In this document: positions 1,229 through 51,737 of the stretch, piece by piece
How the letters are laid out: each line of letters begins with the position of its first letter
Numbering within the stretch: the stretch's first letter is position 1
From: a virus
Lineage: Duplodnaviria > Caudoviricetes
Length of the DNA: 52,777 nt
Direction: 5' to 3' (one strand)
IMG/VR virus record: IMGVR_UViG_3300021960_000095
Location: 1-52,777 of that record
The notes under the pieces: generated by a model
The model's input: only the letters and a program-made list of their open reading frames with translations
Database searches by the model: none
What the model was told of the DNA's origin: nothing
Position numbers and translations under genes: made by a program

Positions 1229-1257
1229 TTGACAAATAAAAAAACGTCAGATATGTT
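1229..1257 (+). promoter_or_regulatory. sigma70/SigA-type promoter containing TGAC-N12-GTCA
   Basis: TTGACA (1229-1234), 17-nt spacer, TATGTT (1252-1257); ACGTCA in the spacer. Overlaps a possible TTG start. Confidence 0.5.
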
Positions 1258-1366
1258 AAAGAAAATAAAACAAGAGGTAGAAAGTTTAAATAAATCTGTC
1301 GACTTGTTCATTAAAGACTATATTGCAGGAGAGATAGATGAGACATACTTTAAAAAAAATAATTAA
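1229..1366 (+). CDS. small hypothetical protein (45 aa), possibly the frameshifted 5' part of 1338-1991
   Basis: TTG start after GAGGAG; stops just after an A8 run. Confidence 0.35.
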   Translation: MTNKKTSDMLKKIKQEVESLNKSVDLFIKDYIAGEIDETYFKKNN

Positions 1367-2064: not shown

Positions 2065-2859
2065 ATGGATAATATAGATAAAGTACAACAGAATAATTTG
2101 ATGCCGTTTGAAGCAATCAAAAAAGATGCATCAGAAATTATTAAAGAAAGAAATAATGCTAGACCAACTGAAGTAGATGCAGTTGGTATATCTGAAGAAT
2201 ATTGGATGGCTGATTTCAGAAATATTTGGAATACAGAGTATCCACGTTCCGCTGAGAAGTGGGGAGAAGATTTTTGGGCTAGTTGGTATAAAAACTTTTC
2301 AGCATTTACAAGACAAGATATTGAATATGCATTCAATGAAGTAAGAAAAGTAAAAAGAGATATGCCACCTAATTTAAGTCACTTATTTGACTTCTGTACT
2401 CAGAATGCTCAGAAAAGAATTAAGTTAGCAGATGTAAATTCAGAAGCTAAATGCAATGATGTAGAGGTGGGGAAATGTGTGTATGGGGACCCGTACTGGC
2501 AACTAACCAAGTACGGGACACACGAATTTATGTTGATGTGTATCTTTAAGTGTGATAAGGCAATTAAAGGTTTTCCCGACAATTATCAACTGAAACAAAG
2601 ACCCGAGCCACAAACTAAAGGTACTTGGTTTAGCAATGTTGCAAAACTTTTATCTAGTAGTGAAGCTCCAATCTTTGATTCGGGTAAAACACAGAAAGAT
2701 AGAAAATTTGAGACTTATCAGTACGCTGAGTTATTTCCCGATGGAAATATTAAAGAAGTTCTGAAAGCACATAACTTAGATGAGAATCTTTCTTTTATAG
2801 AGCAATGTCAACAAATTGCAGAACTTCCAAGAAAAGAGACAATACTAGGCAATGTCTAG
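2065..2859 (+). CDS. hypothetical protein, possible helicase-loader-like (lambda P / SPP1 G39P-like) domain
   Basis: 264 aa with GGAG SD. WYKNFSAFTRQDIEYAFNEVRKVKRDMPPNLSHLFDFC resembles the W...A.....PP.L..F..C pattern of these proteins; the function call is weak. Confidence 0.5.
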   Translation: MDNIDKVQQNNLMPFEAIKKDASEIIKERNNARPTEVDAVGISEEYWMADFRNIWNTEYPRSAEKWGEDFWASWYKNFSAFTRQDIEYAFNEVRKVKRDMPPNLSHLFDFCTQNAQKRIKLADVNSEAKCNDVEVGKCVYGDPYWQLTKYGTHEFMLMCIFKCDKAIKGFPDNYQLKQRPEPQTKGTWFSNVAKLLSSSEAPIFDSGKTQKDRKFETYQYAELFPDGNIKEVLKAHNLDENLSFIEQCQQIAELPRKETILGNV

Positions 2860-2877
2860 AAGTGGCAAGTTTTGAGA

Positions 2878-2886
2878 TGGTACAAT
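2878..2886 (+). promoter_or_regulatory. extended -10 promoter
   Basis: TGG-TACAAT, 6 nt upstream of a structured GC-rich segment. Confidence 0.55.
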
Positions 2887-2892
2887 AGGTAT

Positions 2893-2978
2893 GTCGGCTT
2901 CCCTAGAAGTGGAAACACTTCGAGCTGACTGCCCTCCCATCAACAGCTTTGCCCTCGGGCGGAGCTGTATTTTTTTTT
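2893..2978 (+). ncRNA. candidate ~85-nt small RNA
   Basis: Stem GTCGGCT/AGCTGAC enclosing GAAGTG-GAAA-CACTTC; linker TGCCCTCCCATCA; terminator hairpin 2943-2968 followed by T9. Confidence 0.6.
2943..2978 (+). terminator. intrinsic terminator
   Basis: ACAGCTTTGCCC-TC-GGGCGGAGCTGT followed by a T run. Confidence 0.85.
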
Positions 2979-2989
2979 CTTAAATTGAC

Positions 2990-3018
2990 TTGCATTTTGA
3001 AACGACGTCATCTATGTT
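2990..3018 (+). promoter_or_regulatory. promoter upstream of the large structured RNA
   Basis: TTGCAT-17-TATGTT, with ACGTCATC directly before the -10 as at 14462. Confidence 0.6.
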
Positions 3019-3024
3019 AAGAAT

Positions 3025-3445
3025 ATGTCTGTATGAAAAAGAACGGATTGAGTATGAAACAATTAAATAAAGCTAATCGACTGTCTTAAAAAAAGGCCAT
3101 AAAACGGAAAGCTTGAATACTTCGGGTGGGTAGCCCAAAAAGGTCAAGCAAGTACTAATTAAAAATCCTAAAATAAGGGCAAAATCGCTGGCTATTCAAC
3201 AAAACAGCATAAGAACCATTTCGGTGTGTCATCGGTGGGGAAAGTAAGTATTGCACTGACTTTGCGTTGTTGATGTGTCGTTTGTCTAAATCGAAATGTT
3301 AGGGGGGTGGCAGTTTAAAATTGTAGCGTTGCATAGGGAGCAATTGATAAAAAAGACTTAGGTCTCGACCCTTGTAAGTCACTGAAAAGAATTTAATTGT
3401 TTTAAGTTTGGATTGGCCCAGTAGACATACTGGGTCATCCTTACA
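3025..3445 (+). ncRNA. candidate large structured RNA (~420 nt), class unknown
   Basis: No ORF of 60 aa or more in the track. Nested helices 3057-68/3391-3402 (12 bp perfect), 3079-85/3309-15, 3166-71/3299-3304; local hairpins; GNRA-capped 3' hairpin 3414-3437. Confidence 0.6.
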
Positions 3446-3474
3446 AAGAATTTAAGCAAACAGAAAGGGCAGAA

Positions 3475-4146
3475 ATGTCAAGTTATACAGACCAAGATAA
3501 AAATTATACACAATGCGCAAAGTGCGCAGAACCATTGGAACCAAATAACCAAGGTGCATTAGATATTAGCTATAACGGTGGTTATGGTGATTTCGTAGAC
3601 AATTACGATGGGGAAACTCTTTTCTTTCGTCTTTGTCACAAACACGCTCATCAATTTACCAACTGGTTAGGTAATCCATCAGCAATACACCCAAGTGCAG
3701 GTCATTCTCACAATGGTGCAGAAAAAGGTTTTTGGTATGGCCATATTGGTTGGGACCAAAAAACTTGGTTATCACACCTACGTACTTTTACGTGGTGGCT
3801 ATTTAAAACACGTAGCTTTAAAAAAGCTTGGTCTGAATTAGTTTATTCAGTTAAAAGTCACATTACGTGGACTCGTTCTAATATTAACGATTCAAGTACA
3901 CCAGTTGTTTGGTCACAATTCTTTTTTAAATTGTTTTTCTTAGACAATGCTTATGCTGGTACAGTTACTGCATTGAAGCGTAAGCTCAATGTGTGGAAAC
4001 ACCAAAAAGCTAAAAAAATATATCGTAAATACAAGTCTCTTTACTCAGAAATTTGGGAAAGTGCTATTTACGGTAAACTCACAGAATCCGAAAAATCTTT
4101 AATTATGGATATTGGTGAAGCTTTAAAACAGCAAGAAGAAGAGTAA
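3475..4146 (+). CDS. hypothetical protein with N-terminal CxxC...CxxH putative zinc site
   Basis: 223 aa; CAKC and LCHKH; Trp-rich; AAAGGG upstream. Confidence 0.7.
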   Translation: MSSYTDQDKNYTQCAKCAEPLEPNNQGALDISYNGGYGDFVDNYDGETLFFRLCHKHAHQFTNWLGNPSAIHPSAGHSHNGAEKGFWYGHIGWDQKTWLSHLRTFTWWLFKTRSFKKAWSELVYSVKSHITWTRSNINDSSTPVVWSQFFFKLFFLDNAYAGTVTALKRKLNVWKHQKAKKIYRKYKSLYSEIWESAIYGKLTESEKSLIMDIGEALKQQEEE

Positions 4147-4155
4147 TCTTTTTCA

Positions 4156-4184
4156 AAAGGGGGTATTGCTACAATATCCCCTTT
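4156..4184 (+). terminator. hairpin / likely terminator
   Basis: AAAGGGGGTATTG-CTA-CAATATCCCCTTT just after the 4146 stop. Confidence 0.7.
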
Positions 4185-4205
4185 AAAGCTGTTTATAATG
4201 AACTA

Positions 4206-5468
4206 ATGCCTAAAGATATTTTAGAGAATGTACAAGCGTCAAAACAGAGGGTATACAATATAACATTCCCCCCTCTTCACGATGCCCAAAAAGAAGTTCA
4301 CGATTCTAAAGCTCGTTGGAAAATACTTTGTGCTGGTCGACGATTCGGAAAATCTCGACTTGGAGTACAGATGTGTTTAGAAATAGCATTAGCTGGTGGA
4401 CGTGCTTGGTGGGTAGCTCCTACATTCGCAATATCTAGAGTTGGTTGGCGTGATATTCAAGCAGCAGCCGCATCTTTTCCAAAAGAAATGGGTGTAAACA
4501 TCAAAGTAGGCGATATGCAAGTAGATTTTAACAATGGTGGCTTTATTGGTGTTCGTTCTGCTGATAATCCACAAAGACTTAGAGGTGAGGGTCTTGACTT
4601 CCTTGTTATGGATGAGGCCGCTTTCGTAAAAGAGGAAACTTGGACAGAAGTACTTAGACCTACTCTTACTGAAAGAAAAGGTTCTGCATTATTCATCAGC
4701 ACCCCAAAAGGAATGGATAATTGGTTTTATAGATTATTTGAAAGAGCAAAAACACAGCCCGACTGGGAGAGATTTCAATTTCCCTCTACTTCTAATCCTT
4801 TAGTTGAAGAATCAGAAGTTGAAGCAGCTAAACAAGAAATTGGTTCTCTCGTATTTGCTCAAGAGTATATGGCTCAATTTATATCTGAGGGTTCTCAGAT
4901 GTTCAAACAAGATTGGTTTAGATATTATAAAGAGGGTGTAGGACAAGTTTTTGCTGATGGAGAAAAATACGATTTAAACGATATGACATTATTTGGTTCA
5001 GTTGACCTTGCAACATCAACAAGAGAATCTGCTGACTATACAGTTATAGGAAGCTTTGGACTTCATCAACCAACAAAAAAACTTTTTATTTTAGATATGA
5101 CCATTGCAAGAATGGAAGCACCCGATATTATTCCAGCAATTAAAAGACACGTTGTAAAAAACAATCTTGAATGGGTGGGAATTGAAAAAGCAGGTTTTCA
5201 GCTAGCTTTAGTACAATTTGCAAGAAGAGAGGGTCTTCCAGTTATTGAATTAAGGGCTGATAGAGACAAGCGACAAAGAGCACTTCCTTTATCTGCTAAG
5301 ATGGAAGCAGGATTAGTTTATCTTCCTAAGAATGAAGAGTACTCTTGGGTAGCTGACGTAGAACGTGAACTTCTCACGTTTCCAGTTGGTGCTCACGATG
5401 ACATTGTTGACTGTATATCATATGCTGTCATACAAGAGAAACGTCAAAGGAAGTGGGAAGCATATTAA
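4206..5468 (+). CDS. terL: terminase large subunit
   Basis: Walker A (AGRRFGKS), Walker B (LVMDEAA), ISTPKG coupling motif, nuclease VDLA...D and HDDIVD. Confidence 0.95.
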   Translation: MPKDILENVQASKQRVYNITFPPLHDAQKEVHDSKARWKILCAGRRFGKSRLGVQMCLEIALAGGRAWWVAPTFAISRVGWRDIQAAAASFPKEMGVNIKVGDMQVDFNNGGFIGVRSADNPQRLRGEGLDFLVMDEAAFVKEETWTEVLRPTLTERKGSALFISTPKGMDNWFYRLFERAKTQPDWERFQFPSTSNPLVEESEVEAAKQEIGSLVFAQEYMAQFISEGSQMFKQDWFRYYKEGVGQVFADGEKYDLNDMTLFGSVDLATSTRESADYTVIGSFGLHQPTKKLFILDMTIARMEAPDIIPAIKRHVVKNNLEWVGIEKAGFQLALVQFARREGLPVIELRADRDKRQRALPLSAKMEAGLVYLPKNEEYSWVADVERELLTFPVGAHDDIVDCISYAVIQEKRQRKWEAY

Positions 5469-5470
5469 TT

Positions 5471-8110
5471 ATGGCTGAAGAGAAAAGTTTTTACAGAAGA
5501 GCGGTTGAATACTTACAAGCACCGCCCGAAAGACAAGTTAAAGGTTTAACATATAATCAAAGCACAAATAGTGCTTTAGATTCTGCTGTATTCGGATACA
5601 ATACAAGTTCGGGTGCATTTCCAGCTAAATTACTAGAAGATATTGGCGAGGGAACTGGTAATTCAGCTGTTGTCGCTTGTATCAATGTTTTAGCTACCGC
5701 TTTCGCAGAACCAGTCCTTAAAGTAATGACTAAAACTACTGATGGTGATGAAGAGCAAATGCTTCATCCAGTCGAAAAACTTTTACAAAGACCTAATCCT
5801 TTTACATCGGGTCCTTTACTTTCCCACTACATCGTTACAGCATTAAACGCTAGCGGTGACGCATATTTATTAAAGATAAGAAATTCTTCGGGCCGAGTCA
5901 TACAACTAATCCCAATGATGCCCGACAGAGTTACCCCTCGTGGCAATGAAGATGAATTAATTACTCATTACGAGTATTACGGTTCATCTAAGACAATGGG
6001 CGAATTTGTTGTTCTCAAGAAAGACGATTTAGTTCATATCCGACAAGGAATAGACCCAAACAATCACAGACGTGGTTTTGCTCCTCTTAAATCTGTTTTA
6101 AGAGAACTCGTAGGTGATGAAGCTGCTGGTCAATATGCAACAGCATTACTTCACAATATGGCAGTGCCAGGCGTTATTCTTTCTCCGAAAGATGACTCTA
6201 ACGGCGGACCATCAAGAGAAGAAGCAGAAGCTATTGCTAAAATGTATAAATCTAAATTTGGTGGTGCAAATAGAGGCGCTCCTATGGTTCTTACTGGACC
6301 AATGGATGTTAAGCCAGTATCTTTTTCTCCAGACCAAATGGATTTAAAAGAACTTAGAAGACTTCCCGAAGAGAGAGTTTCCGCAGTTTTAGGTGTCCCA
6401 GCAATTCTCGCTGGACTCGGAGCTGGACTAGACGCGGCGACCTACAACAATACAAAAGAATTAAGAGAGTTTTTTACTGAGCAAAAACTTATTCCTTTAT
6501 GGAAAACAGTTGCTAACGAACTTACACATCAGTTACTTCTTTCAGATTTTACAAGTGATGAAGCTACTTACTGTGCTTATGACTTAAATATGGTCAGAGC
6601 TTTAGCTTCCGATAAAGATTCAACATACAAGAGAATGAATATGGCTGTTGCTGGTGGTTGGGCTACAATCGCAGAAGCTAGAAAAGCAGCTCATTTAGAT
6701 GTTGATGAAACCCACGATGTTTACTTAAGACCACTCAATATGGTTGCTGTACCTATTGAACTTGGTAATCAACCATATCAAATGAATGAACCTAGTGATG
6801 ATGAAAAAGTTATTGACTTAAAAGCAACTCTTTCAACAGTAGATTTTGGAGTTGAATCAGTAAGACAAGGTGGGGTTGCAATGACTGAGGAACCAAGAAA
6901 CGAAGAAAAATACATTGCCGAAATGCCTAATGGTGCTTTTTGTATTATCGACCACGATACTGAAAAAGTAATTGAATGTTTTAAAACAGAGGATGCTGCT
7001 GAAAGAGCATTAGCCAATATGAAAAAATCAATAAATGAAGAGAAAGCAGCCGCTATTTCTTCTAAAGTTCAAAAAACTTTACAAAAGAAAGTAAAAGACC
7101 ATAATGCGAAAAATCCAAAATATAAAGCAAGTTATGGAATGCTGGCAGCTGTCTTCAGACGAGGTGTTGGTGCCTATAGAACTAACCCAGCTTCAGTGCG
7201 AGGTAATGTTACTGGCGCAACCCAGTGGGGAATAGCCCGTGTTAACGCCTTTATAAAAGGTCTTAAAGGTAGCTTTCCAAGAAAACCATTTGACCAAGAT
7301 TTACTTCCTAGTGGTCATCCTCTCTCATCCAAAAAAAATGCAGAGAATATTATTGACGAATTAAAAGTTTCAACAGAAGAAGCAGAAGCATTACTTTACT
7401 CAGAAAGAATGAAGAATGAAACTTCTGAAAAAGCAAAATTATCTGACCTCAAGGTTGGAGATACTGTTAGTTGGTCAATAAATAAAGACCCCGACCCACC
7501 ATCAACTGTTCACGGTGTAATTAAATCACTTAACGCAAGAGATGACAAAGCAACAATGCAAGTATGGGCCATAATGGATGATGGTTCTCATCTTAAAACA
7601 GATAGGAACGTCACAATGGAAGTTTCTAAATTAAAGAAAATTAAAGATTGGCGAAAAGGTGCAAAAGCAAAAGATGATATTACTAACTTCCCTAAAAGCG
7701 GAGACAATCAAAAAATATCTCTTTCTAACTCACAATACAAACAGTTTCCCGATTTCAAGTACGTAAAAGACTTGAAAGAAAACTACCCAACAATTTGGCG
7801 TAGAGCTGGCACTGGAGGAAACCCTCCTACTTCATTCACTGGTAATGATGCATTCAATAGATGGTCTTCATACAAAAAAGGTGATAGAGGTCCAGCAGTT
7901 CTTTCTTGGGTTAAAAGACGAGAAAGATTTATGAACCGTCACAAGAATAACAATAGACTTAACGGTGCTATTGCCGCTATGAAGTGGGGTGGAGTTCTTA
8001 ATATTGGGGTATCTGAGATGAAGAGTTTAGTTAACGAGCAGAAGAAAAAAGTTGATGCTCGAAAGAAAAAAGCTGAAATTTTAATATCTCAGAAAACCAC
8101 AGAAAAATAG
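5471..8110 (+). CDS. portal protein with long multi-domain C-terminal extension
   Basis: HK97-family portal motifs (LLQRPNPF, GDAY, DLVHIR, GFAPL, VLGVPAILAG, TYNN, IAEARK) in the first ~450 aa. ATG 5471 preferred over GTG 5453. Confidence 0.93.
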   Translation: MAEEKSFYRRAVEYLQAPPERQVKGLTYNQSTNSALDSAVFGYNTSSGAFPAKLLEDIGEGTGNSAVVACINVLATAFAEPVLKVMTKTTDGDEEQMLHPVEKLLQRPNPFTSGPLLSHYIVTALNASGDAYLLKIRNSSGRVIQLIPMMPDRVTPRGNEDELITHYEYYGSSKTMGEFVVLKKDDLVHIRQGIDPNNHRRGFAPLKSVLRELVGDEAAGQYATALLHNMAVPGVILSPKDDSNGGPSREEAEAIAKMYKSKFGGANRGAPMVLTGPMDVKPVSFSPDQMDLKELRRLPEERVSAVLGVPAILAGLGAGLDAATYNNTKELREFFTEQKLIPLWKTVANELTHQLLLSDFTSDEATYCAYDLNMVRALASDKDSTYKRMNMAVAGGWATIAEARKAAHLDVDETHDVYLRPLNMVAVPIELGNQPYQMNEPSDDEKVIDLKATLSTVDFGVESVRQGGVAMTEEPRNEEKYIAEMPNGAFCIIDHDTEKVIECFKTEDAAERALANMKKSINEEKAAAISSKVQKTLQKKVKDHNAKNPKYKASYGMLAAVFRRGVGAYRTNPASVRGNVTGATQWGIARVNAFIKGLKGSFPRKPFDQDLLPSGHPLSSKKNAENIIDELKVSTEEAEALLYSERMKNETSEKAKLSDLKVGDTVSWSINKDPDPPSTVHGVIKSLNARDDKATMQVWAIMDDGSHLKTDRNVTMEVSKLKKIKDWRKGAKAKDDITNFPKSGDNQKISLSNSQYKQFPDFKYVKDLKENYPTIWRRAGTGGNPPTSFTGNDAFNRWSSYKKGDRGPAVLSWVKRRERFMNRHKNNNRLNGAIAAMKWGGVLNIGVSEMKSLVNEQKKKVDARKKKAEILISQKTTEK

Positions 8111-8153
8111 ATGTTAAAATAAGATTTAGAGAAAGAGATTTAGGGGAAATAAA

Positions 8154-9398
8154 TTGAATAAAGAATCTAAAAATTTCGAGTTTAAAGCAATTGATGATGT
8201 TAAGGGTTCAGTGGAAGCTGTCTTTTCAGTATTTAACAATATAGATACTGATGGTGACGTTGTGTTACCAGGCGCTATAAAAAGTGGTTTTAAAGATAAC
8301 CAAGTGCCTATGGTCTTTGCCCACAAGTGGGACCAGCCAATTGGAAAAGGTGTCATCTCTCAAGATGATGACAAAGCAACATTTACAGGTAACTTCTTTA
8401 TGGATACCGAGGCTGGCAAAGAGGCTTATCACCTTGCTAAAGGAATGGCTGACTTACAAGAGTGGTCGTTTGGATTTAGAATAAACGATGCTGAAGTCAA
8501 GGAATTCAAAAGCGAAGACGGTGAAGAAATTAGCGCAAGATTTTTAAAAGACCTCACAGTATTTGAGGTTTCCCCAGTCTTAGTAGGTGCAAATAGAGAA
8601 ACCTACACATTAGAAATCAAATCGGGAGAAGAAGCTGTCTATGAAGATTCCCTAAAAGCTCTTCCTAACGATTTATTTGAAACACAAGAAGAAGCAGAGA
8701 AGAGAGCTGAAGAACTAGGTTGTTCTGGTTCTCATAAAGAAATGCACGAGGGCAAAGAATATTATATGCCTTGTGATAACCACACTTCTTACTTAGCTTC
8801 AATGGAAAAAAGTTTGAGGAATGACGTCGAAGAAAAAGACGCTTCCGAAGATTCTGAATCTAATACTAGCGTGCAAGGTATGAGATTTTCAGACGAGGTA
8901 AAAGATGTGCTTGCTGCATTAGATAGCCTCATTGTAAGAGCAACTAGCATAGGCGAGTTGCGAAAGGGAGAGGGCAGAAAGTTGTCAGATAATGCAACTT
9001 CCGCACTTAGAGCAGTTCAAGAAGACTTGAACGATGCTTGGGCCGAAATTGACCAACTCATTGAGGAAGTCAGTGAAATCCCAGTATCTTCTGATGAAGA
9101 TGCAAAAGAAGAAGAATCAACAGATACAGAAACTCTTGAGGCCGAGGAAATCGTCTCAGAAGTTGAAGAATCTTCTACTGAGGAAATCGTAGAAGAAGCA
9201 GTAGCTGAAGATTCATCATCTGAAGTATCCGAATCTGAAGAAGCATCTGAAGAATCTATTGAAGAGGAAATAGAAATCGCTGAAGCAGAAGCTTCAGTTG
9301 AAGAAATTCCAGCTCAAGAGGAAGAAGATGACTCTGAATTGTTTGCAGCCACTCAGCAAATACTTGCTGATGCTGTAATTGCGGAAATCGACGAATAA
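8154..9398 (+). CDS. HK97-family prohead protease with small Cys/His insert and acidic tail
   Basis: DTDGDVVLPGA, PMVFAH, WSFGF, LFEVS-like EVSPVLVGAN motifs; TTG start after GGGGA; extended -10 TGTTAAAAT at 8112-8120. Confidence 0.92.
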   Translation: MNKESKNFEFKAIDDVKGSVEAVFSVFNNIDTDGDVVLPGAIKSGFKDNQVPMVFAHKWDQPIGKGVISQDDDKATFTGNFFMDTEAGKEAYHLAKGMADLQEWSFGFRINDAEVKEFKSEDGEEISARFLKDLTVFEVSPVLVGANRETYTLEIKSGEEAVYEDSLKALPNDLFETQEEAEKRAEELGCSGSHKEMHEGKEYYMPCDNHTSYLASMEKSLRNDVEEKDASEDSESNTSVQGMRFSDEVKDVLAALDSLIVRATSIGELRKGEGRKLSDNATSALRAVQEDLNDAWAEIDQLIEEVSEIPVSSDEDAKEEESTDTETLEAEEIVSEVEESSTEEIVEEAVAEDSSSEVSESEEASEESIEEEIEIAEAEASVEEIPAQEEEDDSELFAATQQILADAVIAEIDE

Positions 9399-9430
9399 GT
9401 ATAAGCAATTAAACAAGGAGACATTTTCAA

Positions 9431-10687
9431 ATGGCTGAAATTAAAGAGCTAAGAGAAAAAGTCGCTGCTAAAAGAGCTGAATTAAAAGAGCTTTTCGAGG
9501 CACAAGAAGACGGCAAGTACTCAGCCGAGCAAAAAGGAGAAATCCAATCTCGCAATGAAGAACTTGCAAGTCTAGTAGAAGAAGTAAATATTCTTTCTGC
9601 TAAAAGTGCTAACGAAAAAGCTATGAATGAAGATTCAGAGCCAGTTAGCGGCGGATACGCCGAAGAGGCATCCGAACCAATTTCAACAATTGGTGATGCA
9701 TTCGTTAAATCAGATGCATACAAAAACTACGTTACAAAAGGCGTAGGCGGAATTGACTCAACAGTCAAATTTAACCCAATGGGTTATAAAGCCACTTTAG
9801 GCGCGGGTACAACTGCTTCATATCCACCAGAGGTCTTAAGACAACCTGGTGTCATTGAAGAAAGTTTAAGAGACCCAAATGCAGTTATTGGACTTTTCGA
9901 CCAAATCGAAACAGACCAAAATGCATTCCAGTACCTTGAAGAAACCACTTTCACAAATGCTGCTGCTGAAGCAGCTGAAGAGGGTGCTGCTGCTGAAGCA
10001 GAACTTGACTTCACAGAGCAAACTGCTGCAATCAGAAAAATTGCAGTTTTCTTGCCAGTGACAGAAGAGTTACTCGCTGACGTTAGCGGAATTCAAGGTT
10101 ACGTAAATTCAAGATTATCAACAATGATGAGACTTCGTTTAGACGGACAGTTACTTAGTGGTGACGGTACCGCTCCTAACTTAGAAGGAATCCTCGATGC
10201 TGGTAAAACTCTTGTAAACTCTGTTGACTACTCCACATACGTAAGCGGTGGCGGAGAATTAAACAGAATGGGTGCAATCTATGAAGCAATCACTGACATT
10301 AGAACAGGTGCTTTCATAGAGCCAGATGCAATCGTAATGCATCCAAACGACTGGTACCAAACAGTAACAGCTGTTAGCGACATCACAACAAGCGGTTCAA
10401 AGAACCCATTGTTCGTTGCTGCAGGTGGATTTGGTGCTGGACCACAAGCATCACTTTGGGGATTAAAAGTTGTTCCTACAACTGCAATCTCTGAGGGTAC
10501 AGTGCTTGTCGGTAGATTCGGTGGCGGTGAAGCTGCTCACGTAGTTATGAAACAAGGTATTGATATCGCTGTTTCTGACAGTCACTCTGACTTCTTTTCC
10601 AAAGGAAAAGTTGCAATCAGAGCAACAATGCGTGTTGGTTTCCCAGTCTACAAACAAAAGGGATTTACCAAAATCACAAACTTCTAA
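9431..10687 (+). CDS. major capsid protein (HK97 fold) with N-terminal delta/scaffold domain
   Basis: Position after the protease; coiled-coil N-terminus; VTEELLAD, LLSGDG, IVMHPNDW, LWGLKVV; AAGGAG SD. Confidence 0.95.
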   Translation: MAEIKELREKVAAKRAELKELFEAQEDGKYSAEQKGEIQSRNEELASLVEEVNILSAKSANEKAMNEDSEPVSGGYAEEASEPISTIGDAFVKSDAYKNYVTKGVGGIDSTVKFNPMGYKATLGAGTTASYPPEVLRQPGVIEESLRDPNAVIGLFDQIETDQNAFQYLEETTFTNAAAEAAEEGAAAEAELDFTEQTAAIRKIAVFLPVTEELLADVSGIQGYVNSRLSTMMRLRLDGQLLSGDGTAPNLEGILDAGKTLVNSVDYSTYVSGGGELNRMGAIYEAITDIRTGAFIEPDAIVMHPNDWYQTVTAVSDITTSGSKNPLFVAAGGFGAGPQASLWGLKVVPTTAISEGTVLVGRFGGGEAAHVVMKQGIDIAVSDSHSDFFSKGKVAIRATMRVGFPVYKQKGFTKITNF

Positions 10688-10705
10688 AGTTAGAAGTTAC
10701 ATTTA

Positions 10706-10732
10706 GTAAAGGGGTCCCAGTGACCCCTTTAC
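10706..10732 (+). terminator. hairpin after the capsid gene (terminator or stabiliser)
   Basis: GTAAAGGGGTC-CCAGT-GACCCCTTTAC; weak U tract. Confidence 0.65.
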
Positions 10733-10760
10733 ACAAAGAATTAAGAATAGGAATTAATAA

Positions 10761-11006
10761 ATGGAATATATAGTAGCAAAGAAAGACATTTGGAAATTAC
10801 AAGACGGAACAATCTTTGAGGGTTCTGCTAACGAACTTCCAAAATCAAACGCTTCTAAAATAGCAAAAGCTGGAATGGAATATTCAGTTGCTTATTTAGA
10901 GAATAACGGCTGGAAAAAAGAAGCTCCTAAAAAAGCTGCACCTAAAAAAGCTGCACCAAAAGCAGAAAACAAAGCTGTTAAACCAGAAGACTTAGAAGAC
11001 AAGTAG
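10761..11006 (+). CDS. small head-associated protein
   Basis: 81 aa with PKKAA repeats and ENKA tail; typical position after a capsid gene. Confidence 0.7.
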   Translation: MEYIVAKKDIWKLQDGTIFEGSANELPKSNASKIAKAGMEYSVAYLENNGWKKEAPKKAAPKKAAPKAENKAVKPEDLEDK

Positions 11007-11013
11007 GCCATAA

Positions 11014-11700
11014 ATGGCTTTAAGTGCGGTTTCTGACGTAGAAAAAGTCCTTGGTGTAGATTTATCGACCAATGATGAGACCAACGTCACTAATGTTTTT
11101 ATACCAGCTGCAGATGCGGCTATAGAAAACTACGTTGGTTATGAGTTAGATTACCAATCAAGCATAGAGGAAAAATTTGATGGAAACGATGATGATTCAA
11201 TTTATCTTAAACACATACCGATTATCAGTGTTTCTTCTATTGTTGAAGATGGCGTTACTTTAACTGAGGGTAATTCTGAAGACTATGTTGTATATAAAAA
11301 GCAAGGCCTTATCAAAAGAACTGGTTTACAATACTGGTCAACTCAGAGACTACAAAATATCGTCGTTACTTACAGTGCTGGTTATTCTGACTCCGAAGTT
11401 AGTGCAGAAGATATTCCTAGTGATATAAAATTTGTATCAGCACGTGTTGCTGGTAGATTATGGGCTGCTTCAGCCAATATTTCCACACAACAATCAACTG
11501 GTGTAGTTTCAACCAACATCGCAGATAATTCAACAGATTCAAAGTTTCAAATGGTTAAATCAGAAAGTATTGGCGATTATGACGTCGAATATGAATCACT
11601 ATTAGACCAACTCAACCAAGAATTATTAAATCCAGCTGATAAATCAATATTATCTAAATATAAAAAACAATTCTTCACATCTGCTGGAATATTAGACTAG
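11014..11700 (+). CDS. head-tail adaptor (gp6/gp15-like)
   Basis: AADAAIENYVG, VVTYSAGY, IPSDIK, SESIGDYDVEY, ILSKYK. Confidence 0.8.
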   Translation: MALSAVSDVEKVLGVDLSTNDETNVTNVFIPAADAAIENYVGYELDYQSSIEEKFDGNDDDSIYLKHIPIISVSSIVEDGVTLTEGNSEDYVVYKKQGLIKRTGLQYWSTQRLQNIVVTYSAGYSDSEVSAEDIPSDIKFVSARVAGRLWAASANISTQQSTGVVSTNIADNSTDSKFQMVKSESIGDYDVEYESLLDQLNQELLNPADKSILSKYKKQFFTSAGILD

Positions 11701-14446: not shown

Positions 14447-14475
14447 TTGACAAGAAACAGTACGTCATCTATATT
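14447..14475 (+). promoter_or_regulatory. promoter with TGAC-N12-GTCA
   Basis: TTGACA-17-TATATT; ACGTCATC before the -10. Confidence 0.7.
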
Positions 14476-14506
14476 AGAGAATGACTATAAAACAAAAGGA
14501 GATGTT

Positions 14507-15412: not shown

Positions 15413-15448
15413 AGCGGAGTTGACAAACTCCGCTTTGTCATATAAGGT
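15413..15448 (+). promoter_or_regulatory. promoter overlapping a hairpin and a perfect operator-like palindrome
   Basis: TTGACA-17-TAAGGT; TGACAAA-N6-TTTGTCA (15421-15440); hairpin AGCGGAGTT-GACA-AACTCCGCT. Confidence 0.6.
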
Positions 15449-15472
15449 AGAAGTATTACTGGGAGGTAAGAA

Positions 15473-16219
15473 ATGGCAAGAGACTACACCTTTGATGTCA
15501 AAGGTTTAATTAAAGAGATAGAGTATAAGCCTTGGGCAGATAACGTCTCTTTAGGAGAAAAATACGGAATATCTAGAGAAAGAGTTAGGCAAATCAGAAT
15601 ACAAAATGATTTACCAACTTCTATAGATGCAAAAAAACAATGGATGCTTGATAACTTCAATCTCTTTATTGATGGAGCTAGGAATGGTAAAACAGTTACT
15701 AATCCAAGATTCGTAAAACAATTTCCAATGAGTTCAAAACTTATGAAAATAGTTTTAGATGAAAATCCAACTCTTAAGAACTTGTACGAGTCAGCATTAG
15801 AAGATTGGGCAGATAGAATGGCTAATCCAACACATAAAACTTGTTTGATTTGTAAACAGAATAAGCCTATCAATGACTACTATACTTCTAAATCAGCTCG
15901 AACAAGAGATGGCTTCGACAGAAAGTGTAAAGAATGTAATGTTCGTGCCGTAAGTAAATATTACGAGTTACGAAAAGACAAACCTAAAACTACACCAACT
16001 GAAAAGTATTGTTCTGCAGTTCCCGAACTTGGAAAGTTACCAGCTTCTGAATTCAGAATAATGACTTCAGCCAATACTGGACTACAACCACAATGTACTC
16101 CATATCAAGACTTCTTCGTTAAGTTTAGAAAAGAACACGAAGTAGACGATGCAAGAGAATTAGCAAGAAGAGCAACTATGGCCTATTATAGAAATTTTGG
16201 TTCGGTCACTGCAAATTAA
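15473..16219 (+). CDS. HTH (sigma-r4-like) plus zinc-finger DNA-binding protein
   Basis: LGEKYGISRERVRQI helix-turn-helix; KTCLICKQNKP...RKCKEC and a degenerate second finger; GGGAGG SD. Confidence 0.75.
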   Translation: MARDYTFDVKGLIKEIEYKPWADNVSLGEKYGISRERVRQIRIQNDLPTSIDAKKQWMLDNFNLFIDGARNGKTVTNPRFVKQFPMSSKLMKIVLDENPTLKNLYESALEDWADRMANPTHKTCLICKQNKPINDYYTSKSARTRDGFDRKCKECNVRAVSKYYELRKDKPKTTPTEKYCSAVPELGKLPASEFRIMTSANTGLQPQCTPYQDFFVKFRKEHEVDDARELARRATMAYYRNFGSVTAN

Positions 16220-49152: not shown

Positions 49153-50386
49153 TAACTTCTCCAGTGAAGTAGAAAAGCTCCGAAAGTCTCGTAGAGACCA
49201 AGAAGATGCTCGTCGAGCTAAAGAAGAGCATCCCGATGGTTTCACGCCAGGCGTTCATTTAAAAAATGGTGTTGGAACTTTAACTACTAAGGGGAATAAG
49301 ACTAAGGTCGAATCAAACGACGAATGGTCTGCACACTTAGAATACTTTGGTTTTAATCCCGAAGAGTTCGAAGTAATTGACAATAAGATAGAATACCGAT
49401 GCTGGGAGGCACCAGTAGACGGTGGTAAGCAAATGATGCACTACTACAAAGTAGGTATTCGTTCCAAACAAGATACAAATGTAAGTTTTGATTTTGATTG
49501 GATTAAAAAGCTTATAACTAAAAAAATATCATTACCTAAGAAACAAAAAGCTTCACAAAGCTTCGTCTTGGCGTTAACTGACTGGCAAGTCGGAAAACAG
49601 GATGGAGACGGTGTAGAGGGAATAGTTCACAGGGTTAACGAAATGATTGGGCAAACTAAAGCACTTATTGAATTTAGAAAGAAAGGCGGGGCTAAGTATA
49701 ACCGCTTAATTCTTTGTGGACTTGGGGATATCGTCGAGGGCTGTGATGGCCATTACGCGATGCAAACCGCGTCCGTCGAAGTGAATCAGCGTGACCAAAT
49801 AACCATAGCTACAGGTCTAATTGTCAAAGTAGTAACTGAGTTGGCTCCTTTATTTCCATTTACCACTATTGCAGTGGTTGGCGGAAATCACGGAGAAAAT
49901 CGTAAGAACGGAAAAGCGTTTACGGATTTTGGAGACAACTTCGATAATTTAGCGTTTGACCAAGCAGAAAGAATTGTTTCGCAAAACAAAGAACTTGCAA
50001 AAAACATTTCTTGGAATATTGCAGATAAAGATTTAACGATGACTTTAGAAATCGAAAATCACATACTAGGAATAGCACACGGCCACCAATTTCGAACTGG
50101 GGGGACTAATCATCCAGCCAAAGCAGGAAACTGGTTAGCTAAACAAGCTTTAGCTAAAACAGCTGTAGGTGGATGTGACATTCTTTTATCTGCACATTTT
50201 CATCATCATTCAACAGAACACCAAAGAAATACTACTTTGGTACAAGCGCCAGCTTTGGATGGTGGTTCTTTATGGATAGAAAATTCTCACGCTTTAACAT
50301 CTAAAGCAGGTGTTCTTACATTTGTTATTGACAACAAATGGGGTTACACAGATGAGAAAGTTCTACACGGAACTACGGTGGAATGA
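49142..50386 (+). CDS. calcineurin-like metallophosphoesterase (Mre11-like nuclease of actinophages)
   Basis: DWQVGK, GDIVEG, GNHGE, HGH and HFHH motifs. Confidence 0.88.
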   Translation: MPRSNFSSEVEKLRKSRRDQEDARRAKEEHPDGFTPGVHLKNGVGTLTTKGNKTKVESNDEWSAHLEYFGFNPEEFEVIDNKIEYRCWEAPVDGGKQMMHYYKVGIRSKQDTNVSFDFDWIKKLITKKISLPKKQKASQSFVLALTDWQVGKQDGDGVEGIVHRVNEMIGQTKALIEFRKKGGAKYNRLILCGLGDIVEGCDGHYAMQTASVEVNQRDQITIATGLIVKVVTELAPLFPFTTIAVVGGNHGENRKNGKAFTDFGDNFDNLAFDQAERIVSQNKELAKNISWNIADKDLTMTLEIENHILGIAHGHQFRTGGTNHPAKAGNWLAKQALAKTAVGGCDILLSAHFHHHSTEHQRNTTLVQAPALDGGSLWIENSHALTSKAGVLTFVIDNKWGYTDEKVLHGTTVE

Positions 50387-51162
50387 AATACTTTTTAGTA
50401 GAAAATGAGAATAAACAAGCCAAGTTAAGAAAAAACGGCAAGTACGGTTGGTATTACCCAAAGCGTAAAAGAGAAATACAAGGAATTGTAATTCATACTG
50501 CTGAGGGTTCTCCAGCTAATGCTGTTGCAAGATATTTCACACATAACACTAGGCCAGCATCGGCTCACGTTGTTATAGATGAATCAGAAACTATTGAGCT
50601 GTTACCCGATGATTTTACAGCATTTCACGTTAGAGGACATAATTCTAGGACTCTAGGAGTAGAAATAGCTTATTGGGCGCATAAATGGGGTGAGAATCTT
50701 CAATTAGAAGACTTACTTCTTTACAATACAGCTAGATGGTGCAAGAAAAAAGTAGATGTATATAACATTCCTTTAGCGAAAGTTAGTACAGCAAACTGGA
50801 ATAAAGGCCAAAAAGGCTTCATTGCACACTCTGATTTAGACCCAAATAGAAGAACAGACCCAGGCGAAGAGTTTCCTTGGGATAGATTTCTTTCTTATGT
50901 GGATGGTGAAAAGCCCGAATTTAGAAGACAAGCTCCACCTTGGAGTGGAAGAGTCTTTAAGTTTGGAGTTCCTTTGATGAGAGGAGCAGATATAGCACAG
51001 TGGCAAGACGCCGCAGGTGGACTGGTTGCTGATGGTATATATGGTAAAATGAGTGTAGCTCGTTGTAAAGAGATACAAAGAGAAGTTGGTTTAATCCCCG
51101 ACGGGATAGTAGGACCACAAACGTGGTATTCTACTTTTCAACTTCCAAAGAGAGGAAACTAA
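50383..51162 (+). CDS. N-acetylmuramoyl-L-alanine amidase endolysin with peptidoglycan-binding domain
   Basis: IVIHTAE, SAH, GVEI, H......RTDPG; C-terminal DGIYG and DGIVGPQTW. Confidence 0.92.
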   Translation: MKYFLVENENKQAKLRKNGKYGWYYPKRKREIQGIVIHTAEGSPANAVARYFTHNTRPASAHVVIDESETIELLPDDFTAFHVRGHNSRTLGVEIAYWAHKWGENLQLEDLLLYNTARWCKKKVDVYNIPLAKVSTANWNKGQKGFIAHSDLDPNRRTDPGEEFPWDRFLSYVDGEKPEFRRQAPPWSGRVFKFGVPLMRGADIAQWQDAAGGLVADGIYGKMSVARCKEIQREVGLIPDGIVGPQTWYSTFQLPKRGN

Positions 51163-51737
51163 TGAAATTAGAAGTTCTTAGAATAAGCTCTCAGAACGAT
51201 AGCACTAGCGGTATTTTATTTGATGTTACAGATGGGAAACGTAAATTTCTTTGCTATACCCTCGAAGACGAATATCGTAGAGTTAAAGTAAAACACGAAA
51301 CAAGAATACCCGAGGGTACATATAAATTGACCCTTAGAAGCGAGGGTGGTTTTCATAAACGTTATCTTGAGAAATTTGGTTCAAATTTTCACAAAGGTAT
51401 GATTTATGTAAACAACGTACCGAATTTCGAGTGGATTCTTTGGCACCTGGGTAATTTTGAAAAAAATACCAGTGGTTGTTTACTTTTAGGAAATTCTCAA
51501 AATGAGAATATATCTGATAAAAAAGGTTACATCGGAGCGTCAACAGCGGCGTACAAGCGTGTATACCCTATCGTAAGAGATGCAATTTTAAGTGGTGAGG
51601 ATGTGTCAGTAACCTATGTGGACTTTGACCACGTAGAGGGAAAACCAACACCAAAAGTAAAGCCAACTAAGCCTTATAAGCCGTATGACAAAGAAAACAG
51701 TCAGAAGCTCATAAAGCGTATTGGCCGTTTAAAGTAA
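51162..51737 (+). CDS. DUF5675-like protein (putative peptidoglycan peptidase)
   Basis: CYTLED, TRIPEGTY, ILWHLGN...TSGCLLLG; ATG 51162 via TAATG. Confidence 0.75.
   Translation: MKLEVLRISSQNDSTSGILFDVTDGKRKFLCYTLEDEYRRVKVKHETRIPEGTYKLTLRSEGGFHKRYLEKFGSNFHKGMIYVNNVPNFEWILWHLGNFEKNTSGCLLLGNSQNENISDKKGYIGASTAAYKRVYPIVRDAILSGEDVSVTYVDFDHVEGKPTPKVKPTKPYKPYDKENSQKLIKRIGRLK

What the first reader, a model, noticed from the sequence alone, without database searches (positions are those of the whole stretch)
3025..3445. Large multi-branched RNA of unrecognised class upstream of the packaging genes
Seen: ~450 nt without a long ORF in a tightly packed genome, behind a promoter. Nested long-range helices: AAACAATTAAAT/ATTTAATTGTTT (3057-68/3391-3402), GCTA/TAGC (3072-75/3324-27), GACTGTC/GGCAGTT (3079-85/3309-15), TCCTAA/TTAGGG (3166-71/3299-3304). 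Local stems 3111-16/3144-49, 3187-90/3205-08, 3232-37/3254-59, 3355-60/3375-80, and a 10-bp GACA-capped hairpin. Possible loop-mediated pseudoknots: TCAACAA/TTGTTGA (3196-3202/3267-73) or GGGTAGCC/GGCTATTC (3128-35/3190-97). A-rich linkers and GU pairs favour the + strand. I see no tRNA, tmRNA, RNase P, intron or riboswitch consensus. Established: phages carry large ornate RNAs (GOLLD, ROOL, phi29 pRNA). Inference: a possibly new large ncRNA, perhaps partnered with the downstream Zn-motif protein 3475-4146 in the same transcription unit.
Basis: partly seen in the sequence, partly recalled or inferred. Interest (0 to 1): 0.85.

Follow-up and report, generated by a model that had tools for sequence, protein, structure and literature searches.

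The report
New folded RNA gene, marine phages
The gene-free stretch ahead of the DNA-packaging genes of this uncultured marine phage is a real gene for a roughly 400-base, intricately folded non-coding RNA that matches no catalogued RNA family and whose job is still unknown.

Summary
Window 3025-3445 (+) holds a real structured non-coding RNA. Its core (3057-3402) is closed by a 12-bp helix. On 24 distinct homologues a 90-pair model is 96.8% paired. 28 pairs show compensatory changes, against 1-4 in slid controls. No Rfam family matches. The RNA is often better conserved at the DNA level than the terminase gene. RNA-library contigs of four studies cover it. It sits behind a promoter of the phage's own class.

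The proposed partnership with the downstream Zn-motif protein is not supported. A distant full-length member (137 bits) lies in a complete 71.8-kb phage record, about 10 kb from that protein's homologue. There it is a stand-alone gene beside an ArdC-like gene, facing convergent genes.

I read it as an autonomous, trans-acting folded RNA, probably protein-binding. That function is inferred, not shown.

This scan probably met the family before on other DNA, as a distant member (note e1-5871286).

The parts
2985..3018 (+). Promoter of the RNA: -35 TTGCAT 2990-2995 (an overlapping TTGACT at 2985-2990), GTCA box 3007-3010, -10 TATGTT 3013-3018, 17-nt spacer. Predicted start near 3025.
   Evidence: Read from the sequence. 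Same layout (TTGACA-N11-GTCA-N2-TATxTT) at 1229, 14447, 15420 and minus 14077. Aligned with TTGACA-17-TATGAT in L031. Use as a promoter is inferred.
3025..3056 (+). Variable 5' leader before helix P1. About 10-20 nt in the L013/L031 clades, about 100 nt with extra hairpins in L005/L006/L007/L012.
   Evidence: Alignment A1. An RNA-library contig of X18 runs 62 nt upstream of 3050 in the long-leader variant. One of X15 starts 8 nt upstream of 3057 in the short-leader variant.
3057..3402 (+). Core of the RNA, closed by P1 (3057-3068 with 3391-3402). Invariant in all 23 aligned members, including the distant one: AAUCG 3075-79, UAAAACGG 3100-07, GUGGGUA 3126-32, AAUUAAA 3157-63, UGUGUCAUC 3225-33, UUAAAAUUG 3315-23, GCAAU 3340-44, UAAAAAAG 3348-55, CUCGACC 3364-70.
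   Evidence: Model R1 scores the window at 420.5 bits.
3072..3327 (+). P2: 3072-3075 with 3324-3327.
   Evidence: No compensation among close relatives. 3 of 4 pairs compensated in L174 (model-fitted alignment).
3079..3315 (+). P3: 3079-3085 with 3309-3315. Continued after a bulge by P3b: GCC 3096-3098 with GGU 3305-3307.
   Evidence: P3 has 3 pairs with compensatory changes and is 100% paired. P3b has C-G to G-C in 3 sequences.
3111..3149 (+). P4 arm: 3111-3116 with 3144-3149; 3120-3121 with 3141-3142; 3124-3127 with 3133-3136; loop GGGUA.
   Evidence: 5 pairs with compensatory changes.
3166..3304 (+). Central domain: P5 3166-3171/3299-3304; P6 3177-3183/3281-3287; P8 3196-3202/3267-3273; P9 3216-3219/3235-3238 plus 3222-3226/3230-3234 (loop UGU); P10 3239-3250/3254-3265.
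   Evidence: P5 has 2, P6/P7 6, P8 5 and P9 3 pairs with compensatory changes. P6-P8 diverge in the L018 clade and in L174. The pairing between P6 and P8 is ambiguous.
3328..3380 (+). 3' domain: P11 3328-3332/3340-3344 (loop AUAGGGA); P12 3354-3357/3362-3365 (loop UUAG); then invariant CUCGACC. A weak GAC/GUC pairing at 3367-69/3378-80 is unsupported.
   Evidence: P12 middle pair is AU 10, GC 10, UA 4. P11 never varies.
3410..3440 (+). 3' hairpin outside the core (3414-3423 with 3428-3437, loop GACA). No U-run here. A U-rich tail follows it in the L013, L143 and L031 variants. A wholly different hairpin stands here in the L135 clade.
   Evidence: Covaries; sequences. Role as a leaky terminator or processing or stabilising hairpin is inferred.
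2893..2978 (+). Context, not part of the RNA: separate small RNA with its own extended -10 (TGGTACAAT 2878-2886) and a terminator (2943-2968 plus T-run).
   Evidence: Subject of another note of this scan (e1-6309499).
3475..4146 (+). Context: 223-aa Cys/His-motif protein of unknown family, then the large terminase at 4206-5468.
   Evidence: No Pfam, PHROGs or PDB match. AlphaFold2 mean pLDDT 61.7. TerL has Pfam Terminase_6N/6C.

Best explanation
Window 3025-3445 (+) is a gene for a non-coding RNA of about 380-420 nt. It belongs to a previously uncatalogued family carried by a lineage of uncultured marine and estuarine tailed phages.

Shown: a 346-nt core (3057-3402) closed by a 12-bp helix, holding about a dozen helices in three arms with many invariant A-rich junctions and loops. 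The fold is maintained by compensatory mutations. The family has two deep branches that sit in unrelated gene neighbourhoods.

Inferred: it is transcribed from a promoter of the phage's own sigma-70-like class and ends, leakily, at a variable 3' hairpin. The folded RNA itself is the product and acts in trans. It most likely acts as the RNA part of a ribonucleoprotein, or as a decoy that binds a conserved host or phage protein through its invariant loops. Its place just ahead of the packaging genes in this clade would then be incidental, although read-through from its promoter probably also feeds that operon here.
For: Structure. A 90-pair model on 24 distinct sequences is 96.8% paired. 28 pairs have changes on both sides, against 1-4 in six slid controls, and 0 of 500 shuffles reach the observed values. 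RNAalifold on its own finds 25 compensated pairs of 70.

Distant member. L174/G001:9640-9979 scores 136.9 bits (E 5.5e-44) over the full length of the model. Of the 90 pairs, 41 are the same, 21 compensated, 10 changed on one side, 11 broken and 7 gapped.

Autonomy. In G001 (100% complete) the RNA has its own TTGACA-17-CAATAT promoter and follows an ArdC-like gene and a 96-aa ORF. Minus-strand ORFs follow it. None of those neighbours has a homologue in the window. G001 has no homologue of the 265-aa upstream protein. Its homologue of ORF 3475 lies about 10 kb away.

Constraint. The RNA's nucleotide identity exceeds that of TerL in 4 of 6 comparisons and that of both flanking genes in 5 of 6. 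136 of 374 alignment columns are invariant, including the distant member.

Expression. Contigs from RNA libraries of 4 studies lie on 3050-3391.

Promoter. Same class as four other sites in the window.
Against: No experiment and no raw reads: transcript ends, strand and abundance are not measured. RNA-library contigs may include DNA, and the runs were chosen because they hold this stretch.

The MFE z-score is only -1.7.

The sequences come from about six related clades plus one distant member, so independent events are few. The alignment with the distant member is fitted to the model.

In the window clade only about 35 nt separate the 3' hairpin from ORF 3475. No promoter of the phage's class lies between them. 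So here the RNA is physically the head of the packaging transcript, as a cis leader would be.

No protein partner is identified, so protein binding is an inference from how large ncRNAs generally work. Only one member of the second branch was found.
Confidence: 0.5

Rival explanations
1. Cis-acting leader of the packaging and head operon. The folded RNA plus its 3' hairpin would control read-through (attenuation or processive antitermination) or the stability of the late transcript. This would resemble the lambda PR'-6S-tR' arrangement or HK022 put RNA (both recalled, not tested).
For: In every locus of the window's branch that has both flanks, the RNA lies directly before ORF 3475-TerL. The strong terminator of the small RNA upstream and the lack of another promoter of the phage's class before 3475 make the RNA's promoter the likeliest source of the packaging transcript. 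The 3' hairpin has a U-rich tail in 3 clades. One X15 contig bridges the RNA and the start of ORF 3475.
Against: The distant member in G001 is followed by convergent genes, with no downstream gene to control. About 350 nt of invariant junctions is far more than known leaders of this type need. L003/L004 and the L020 clade run the same packaging genes without it at this place.
Confidence: 0.2
2. RNA-only machine: a self-assembling multimer like ROOL or GOLLD, or a ribozyme.
For: Size, a closed multi-branch fold, A-rich invariant junctions and a phage setting. Palindromic single-stranded words in the invariant junction 3151-3163 could mediate self-association (read from the sequence). Kretsch et al. 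(10.1101/2024.12.08.627333; I saw the listing and the start of the abstract only) show that such RNAs form RNA-only complexes.
Against: No similarity to ROOL or GOLLD models. No tRNA genes nearby. No pseudoknot or inter-molecular contact could be tested, because the candidate partners never vary. At about 350 nt it is smaller than those RNAs.
Confidence: 0.12
3. RNA partner of a phage protein encoded next to it: either the Zn-motif protein 3475-4146 or the 265-aa Cys/His protein 2065-2859.
For: Fixed order 265-aa gene, small RNA, this RNA, ORF 3475 in 17 of 18 metagenome loci with upstream sequence. All 16 IMG/VR contigs with the 265-aa protein also carry the RNA. Both proteins have conserved Cys/His motifs and no known family.
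Against: G001 has the RNA but no detectable 265-aa homologue, and its ORF 3475 homologue is 10 kb away. L003/L004 have ORF 3475 at 96% identity with other genes upstream. The co-occurrence is within one syntenic lineage and so carries little weight.
Confidence: 0.1
4. Not an RNA gene: a DNA-level element (pac/cos site, origin) or an unrecognised coding region.
For: It lies next to the terminase genes, where pac/cos sites often lie. No replication genes were recognised in the window.
Against: Compensatory changes with invariant G-U pairs on one strand only. No ORF over 33 aa, and the short ATG frames are not conserved between clades. GC skew shows no turning point. The distant member is far from the packaging genes.
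Confidence: 0.03

Closest known systems
ROOL (Rfam RF03087) and GOLLD (RF01998): large 'ornate' RNAs of phages and prophages
   Same: Phage-borne, several hundred nucleotides, multi-branched, with highly conserved junctions and no known function. Transcribed as a separate RNA.
   Different: No sequence or structure match to either model. About 350-nt core against roughly 580 and 800 nt (sizes recalled). Not next to tRNA genes. Multimer formation untested.
phi29 pRNA (Rfam accession recalled as RF00044)
   Same: A phage-encoded structured RNA. In this clade it is encoded beside the packaging genes.
   Different: No model match. About three times larger. This phage has a classical terminase with a nuclease domain (Pfam Terminase_6N/6C), a motor type with no known RNA part. 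The distant member is not near packaging genes.
Late-operon leaders and antitermination RNAs (lambda 6S/tR', HK022 put; recalled)
   Same: Promoter, then RNA, then hairpin, directly before the morphogenesis genes in the window's clade.
   Different: Those RNAs are short (about 65-200 nt) and act only in cis. This one is large, more conserved than its neighbours, and occurs as a stand-alone gene in G001.
Candidate structured RNAs of viruses catalogued from IMG/VR (Fremin et al. 2023, PMC10690425)
   Same: Same data source and the same kind of evidence (covariation in viral intergenic regions).
   Different: Their candidates are 29-151 nt, mean 67 (passage read), so this RNA cannot be there whole. 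Single hairpins of it might be listed in supplements that I could not open.
   Same: Probably the distant branch of this same family. It shares short words with the window's RNA and comes from a genome that also holds the element I found in the L020/G001 clade.
   Different: I could not see its sequence, so the identity is not proven. The window's branch sits in a different gene context.

Membership tests
New family defined here (model R1) | Full-length match to the covariance model: 352 positions, 90 pairs, P1-closed core with nine invariant words | tested here: met
   Window 3055-3404 scores 420.5 bits. There are 22 further full-length matches, including a distant one at 136.9 bits. The window is one of the sequences the model was built from, so its own match is by construction.
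GOLLD (RF01998) / ROOL (RF03087) | Match to the Rfam covariance model | tested here: not met
   0 matches at gathering score in the window and in 7 related loci. Neither family appears at E up to 10 on 2800-3550 or on L174:1400-1960.
GOLLD / ROOL | Frequent placement beside tRNA genes in phages or prophages (recalled) | tested here: not met
   ARAGORN finds no tRNA or tmRNA in the 52.8-kb window.
GOLLD / ROOL | Homo-oligomeric RNA-only assembly | not testable with these tools
   Needs native gels, SEC or cryo-EM.
Group I / group II introns | Model match and interruption of a host gene | tested here: not met
   No intron family at E up to 10. The flanking ORFs are complete and keep their lengths in relatives: 264-266 aa and 217-241 aa.
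RNase P RNA, tmRNA, 6S, SRP RNA | Model match (Rfam) or ARAGORN call | tested here: not met
phi29-type pRNA | Model match; phage with a phi29-type packaging ATPase | tested here: not met
   No match. The packaging enzyme here is a T4-type large terminase (Pfam).
HEARO / omega-RNA of IscB-TnpB nucleases | Model match and an adjacent IscB/IsrB/TnpB gene | tested here: not met
   No match. Neighbours in the window have no Pfam match and are 223-264 aa. In L174 the only family found is an ArdC-like gene.
Riboswitch or other cis-regulatory leader | Consistent placement in the 5' UTR of one gene family | tested here: not met
   Met within the window's branch but not in G001, where convergent genes follow.

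The most novel reading that the evidence does not exclude
The RNA is a phage counter-defence or host-takeover decoy: an abundant, compactly folded RNA that mimics a host RNA or binds and disables a host protein. It would move between phages as a one-gene module, as anti-defence genes do. This fits its stand-alone copy beside an ArdC-like anti-restriction gene in G001, its promoter of the phage's general class, its different neighbourhoods in the two branches, and loops more conserved than the terminase gene. Nothing here tests it directly.
Probability: 0.15. Interest if true: 0.8.

Novelty: new variant of a known kind. Interest (0 to 1): 0.6.

Why it matters
Large, highly conserved RNAs with complex folds are rare, and each class solved so far (RNase P, tmRNA, 6S, OLE, ROOL/GOLLD) has revealed new biochemistry.

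This one comes with a well-supported secondary structure, a working covariance model, two deep branches in different gene contexts, and signs of presence in ocean RNA samples. That makes it a tractable candidate for structure work (about 350 nt) and for asking what uncultured marine phages do with RNA.

It also shows that the lineage carries several separate conserved non-coding elements around the boundary with the packaging genes. Annotation pipelines would leave all of them blank.

Tried and rejected
Known families: Rfam at gathering score on the window and 7 loci, and at E up to 10 on two members, gave only chance hits (TarA, sn2903, ncr982, WT1-AS_7, RAGATH-32). ARAGORN found nothing.

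GenBank phages: blastn with both branches gave no match. TerL is under 27% identical to any cultured phage, so no host could be named.

Genome scan: the pattern hit only a Streptomyces contig and an actinomycete MAG. The profile does not confirm either, so they are chance hits. No prophage or host was found.

Thermodynamics: z-scores of -1.7 and -2.0 do not decide anything.

Small RNA (2893-2942) pairing with this RNA: duplex energy no better than 27 of 200 shuffles. The short complementarities I saw by eye are lost in clades where the RNA's helices covary. Rejected.

Pseudoknots: the loop GGGU 3128-31 with ACCC 3368-71 is possible but both sides never vary.

Short ORFs in the leader and core (18 aa, 11 aa, 22 aa) are not conserved between clades. 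A tmRNA-like tag reading was rejected for the same reason.

Proteins: AlphaFold2 models of the 265-aa protein (pLDDT 55.7) and of ORF 3475 (61.7) were too poor for fold search. PDB profile searches, Pfam, PHROGs and the protein atlas gave nothing usable.

Fragmentary records without the RNA (G002-G010, 21-86% complete) say nothing about absence.

RNA-library contigs: X16 and X20 cover only the RNA, and X18 has 34.7 depth on it against 2.2 on ORF 3475. The runs were picked for holding this stretch and contigs give no local depth, so I do not count the uncovered flanks as evidence.

GC skew shows no origin-like turn.

L138 joins the RNA to unrelated GC-rich DNA about 12 nt before P1. I treat it as a probable assembly chimera.

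Literature searches for this RNA in print: which gave listings only, plus passages of PMC10690425. Nothing describes it. That paper's supplements were not seen.

Full report
WHAT IS THERE. The window is a 52,777-bp virus record, estimated 91% complete. Its large terminase is under 27% identical to that of any cultured phage. The stretch 2860-3474 lies between ORF 2065-2859 (264 aa) and ORF 3475-4146 (223 aa). Neither protein has a Pfam or PHROGs match. It is the longest part of the window without a + strand ORF of 50 aa. Downstream come TerL (4206-5468), portal, protease and major head protein.

TWO ELEMENTS, NOT ONE. Aligning the gap from 11 related loci shows a separate small RNA at about 2893-2978. 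It has its own extended -10 and a strong terminator. Then comes a promoter, then the large element the finding is about. The small RNA is the subject of another note of this scan, and I treat it only as context.

CONSERVATION. A search with ORF 3475 found 33 viral loci.
- 17 hold the large element directly upstream (L001, L002, L005-L018, L031).
- 2 have no upstream sequence (L019, L029).
- 14 lack it at that place (L003, L004, L020-L028, L030, L032, L033).

The non-coding DNA is 84-96% identical where ORF 3475 is only 56-72% identical in protein. In six pairwise comparisons the RNA core is 97, 95, 93, 92, 76 and 88% identical at the DNA level. TerL is 99, 86, 85, 83, 80 and 81%, ORF 3475 is 98 to 60%, and the 264-aa gene is 83 to 61%. 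Pattern scans of viral and metagenome collections, confirmed with a profile, raised the set to 55 loci and 31 distinct sequences, 26 of them full length.

STRUCTURE. RNAalifold on the 26 sequences predicts 70 pairs, 25 of them with compensatory changes. I curated a 90-pair model and counted it on the 24 distinct rows.
- 96.8% of cells are standard pairs.
- 28 pairs have changes on both sides (145 cells).
- Sliding the 3' partners by 1-3 columns gives 1-4 such pairs and 30-48% pairing.
- None of 500 shuffles reaches the observed values. The tool warns that related sequences can exceed shuffles without structure, so the slid controls carry more weight.

The core is closed by P1 (3057-68/3391-3402). 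P2 and P3 follow, then a newly found P3b (GCC 3096-98 with GGU 3305-07, C-G to G-C in three sequences). These enclose a P4 arm (3111-3149) and a central domain (3166-3304). A 3' domain with two hairpins follows (3328-3365). Ten or more columns are invariant G-U pairs, which fixes the + strand.

Three local stems and one pseudoknot are displaced by covarying alternatives or are broken without compensation. Energy alone is not significant: z is -1.7, with 7 of 100 shuffles as good.

ENDS. The promoter is TTGCAT-17-TATGTT with a GTCA box (2990-3018). It has the same layout as four other sites in the window: 1229, 14447, 15420 and minus 14077. It aligns with TTGACA-17-TATGAT in L031. The 5' leader varies in length between clades. 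After P1 comes a hairpin (3414-3437) that covaries. It has a U-rich tail in the L013, L143 and L031 variants but not here, and is replaced by an unrelated hairpin in the L135 clade. Transcript ends are therefore inferred, not measured.

RNA SAMPLES. Contigs from RNA libraries of four studies lie on the core: 3057-3386, 3123-3337, 3050-3307 and 3096-3386. One starts 8 nt before P1 in a short-leader variant. One starts 62 nt upstream in a long-leader variant. One bridges into ORF 3475. These are contigs of runs chosen for holding the stretch, and DNA can be present in RNA libraries. So they show presence in RNA libraries, not level or ends.

KNOWN FAMILIES. No Rfam family matches at gathering score in the window or in seven related loci. 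None matches at E up to 10 on either branch beyond obvious chance hits. There is no tRNA or tmRNA. GenBank phages hold nothing similar. Fremin et al. 2023 (PMC10690425; passages read) catalogued IMG/VR candidates of 29-151 nt. This RNA cannot be among them whole. Its hairpins might be, in supplements that I could not open.

THE DECISIVE CONTEXT. A covariance model (R1) found nothing within 3 kb of ORF 3475 in the distant clade. Another (e1-5871292) matched the conserved non-coding element of that clade. So I searched whole records.

In G001, a 71.8-kb record rated 100% complete, R1 finds a full-length member at 9640-9979 (136.9 bits, E 5.5e-44). Of the 90 pairs, 41 are unchanged, 21 are compensated (6 in P1, 3 in P2, 4 in P3), 10 are changed on one side, 11 are broken and 7 are gapped. 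The alignment is fitted to the model.

There the RNA has its own TTGACA-17-CAATAT promoter. It follows an ArdC-like gene (Pfam ArdcN plus an M78-type peptidase) and a 96-aa ORF, and is followed by minus-strand ORFs. It lies about 10 kb from the ORF 3475 homologue. None of its neighbours has a homologue in the window. G001 has no homologue of the 264-aa protein. TerL of that phage is 67% identical to the window's.

So the RNA is the only thing the two loci share. It behaves as an autonomous gene.

THE PARTNER IDEAS. Within the window's branch the order 264-aa gene, small RNA, large RNA, ORF 3475, TerL is fixed. It holds in 17 of 18 metagenome loci with upstream sequence. The exception, L138, joins the RNA to unrelated GC-rich DNA about 12 nt before P1 and looks chimeric. 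All 16 IMG/VR contigs with the 264-aa protein carry the RNA. This is one syntenic lineage, so it proves little. G001 breaks both links. L003/L004 carry ORF 3475 at 96% identity (TerL 70%) with small protein genes in place of the RNA.

MECHANISM. Shown: a conserved, compensated fold; a family with two branches; independence from its neighbours; presence in RNA libraries. Inferred: promoter use, a leaky 3' end, and action in trans.

I commit to a trans-acting folded RNA, most likely working with a protein as an RNP core or decoy. My reasons are that invariant loops and junctions outnumber what a fold alone needs, and that most large bacterial RNAs work that way. Confidence is about 0.5 for the trans-acting gene and lower for protein binding.

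The main rival is a cis leader of the packaging operon. It keeps 0.2 because in this clade the RNA's promoter is the only recognisable one ahead of 3475-11700, and only about 35 nt separate the hairpin from the start codon. An RNA-only assembly or ribozyme, a phage-protein partner, and a DNA element follow.

NOVELTY. This is a new RNA family, not a member of any catalogued one. It is of a kind already known: orphan large structured RNAs of phages. This scan has reported several such orphans and probably this very family's distant branch.

LIMITS.

Noticed in passing
window 2878-2978; L020:1153-1260: The small RNA upstream (own extended -10, stem-loop, single-stranded CCCUCCCAUC, terminator) is nearly invariant in all 11 aligned loci. 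It has a divergent homologue that keeps that word in the distant clade (nhmmer E 7e-4 to 0.02).
   Followed up: partly
L020:835-1130 (also L023, L025, L027, L028, L030): In the distant clade a further conserved non-coding element of about 280-300 nt lies just upstream of the small-RNA homologue. It has at least one covarying helix and is absent from the window (nhmmer).
   Followed up: partly
L020:~925-945 with ~1185-1205: The single-stranded word of the small-RNA homologue is complementary to a stretch of that upstream element (15 of 16 pairs by eye). Duplex energy is -45.8 against -35.2 +/- 3.8 in 200 shuffles, with 0 as good. Both sides never vary, so it is untestable by covariation.
   Followed up: partly
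window 1229-1262, 2990-3018, 14447-14476, 15420-15450, minus 14077-14045: Five promoter-like sites share the layout TTGACA-N11-GTCA-N2-TAT(G/A)TT or TAAGGT. This looks like a phage-specific promoter class or an operator inside the spacer.
   Followed up: partly
window 2065-2859 and homologues (alignment A5): A 264-266-aa protein with invariant Cys/His (C130, C138, H153, C159, C163) and a DRKFETYQ..ELFPDG block. It has no family or structure match, evolves fast (54-82% identity), and is always just upstream of the two RNAs in this lineage.
   Followed up: partly
L003/L004 against window 3475-5468: Mosaicism: ORF 3475 is 96% identical but the adjacent TerL only 70%, and the upstream module is replaced by small ORFs. 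A recombination boundary lies at the start codon of ORF 3475.
   Followed up: partly
L005, L006, L007, L012 (between promoter and P1); L007:2190-2480: These clades carry about 75-100 extra nucleotides with two hairpins in the RNA's leader. L007/L008 also carry a further insert of about 190-285 nt after the small RNA, with a second copy of the promoter region.
   Followed up: no
L138:7000-7400: A metagenome contig joins unrelated GC-rich DNA to the RNA about 12 nt before P1 and ends inside the 3' hairpin. It is probably a chimera, but its breakpoints coincide with the predicted ends of the RNA.
   Followed up: partly
window, whole: No DNA polymerase, helicase or primase family was recognised among the ORFs I scanned. 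The right end holds an Amidase_2/PG_binding_1 lysin (50383-51162) and a DUF5675 protein (51123-51737). ORF 15473-16219 has a weak Sigma70_r4 hit (E 0.004).
   Followed up: no
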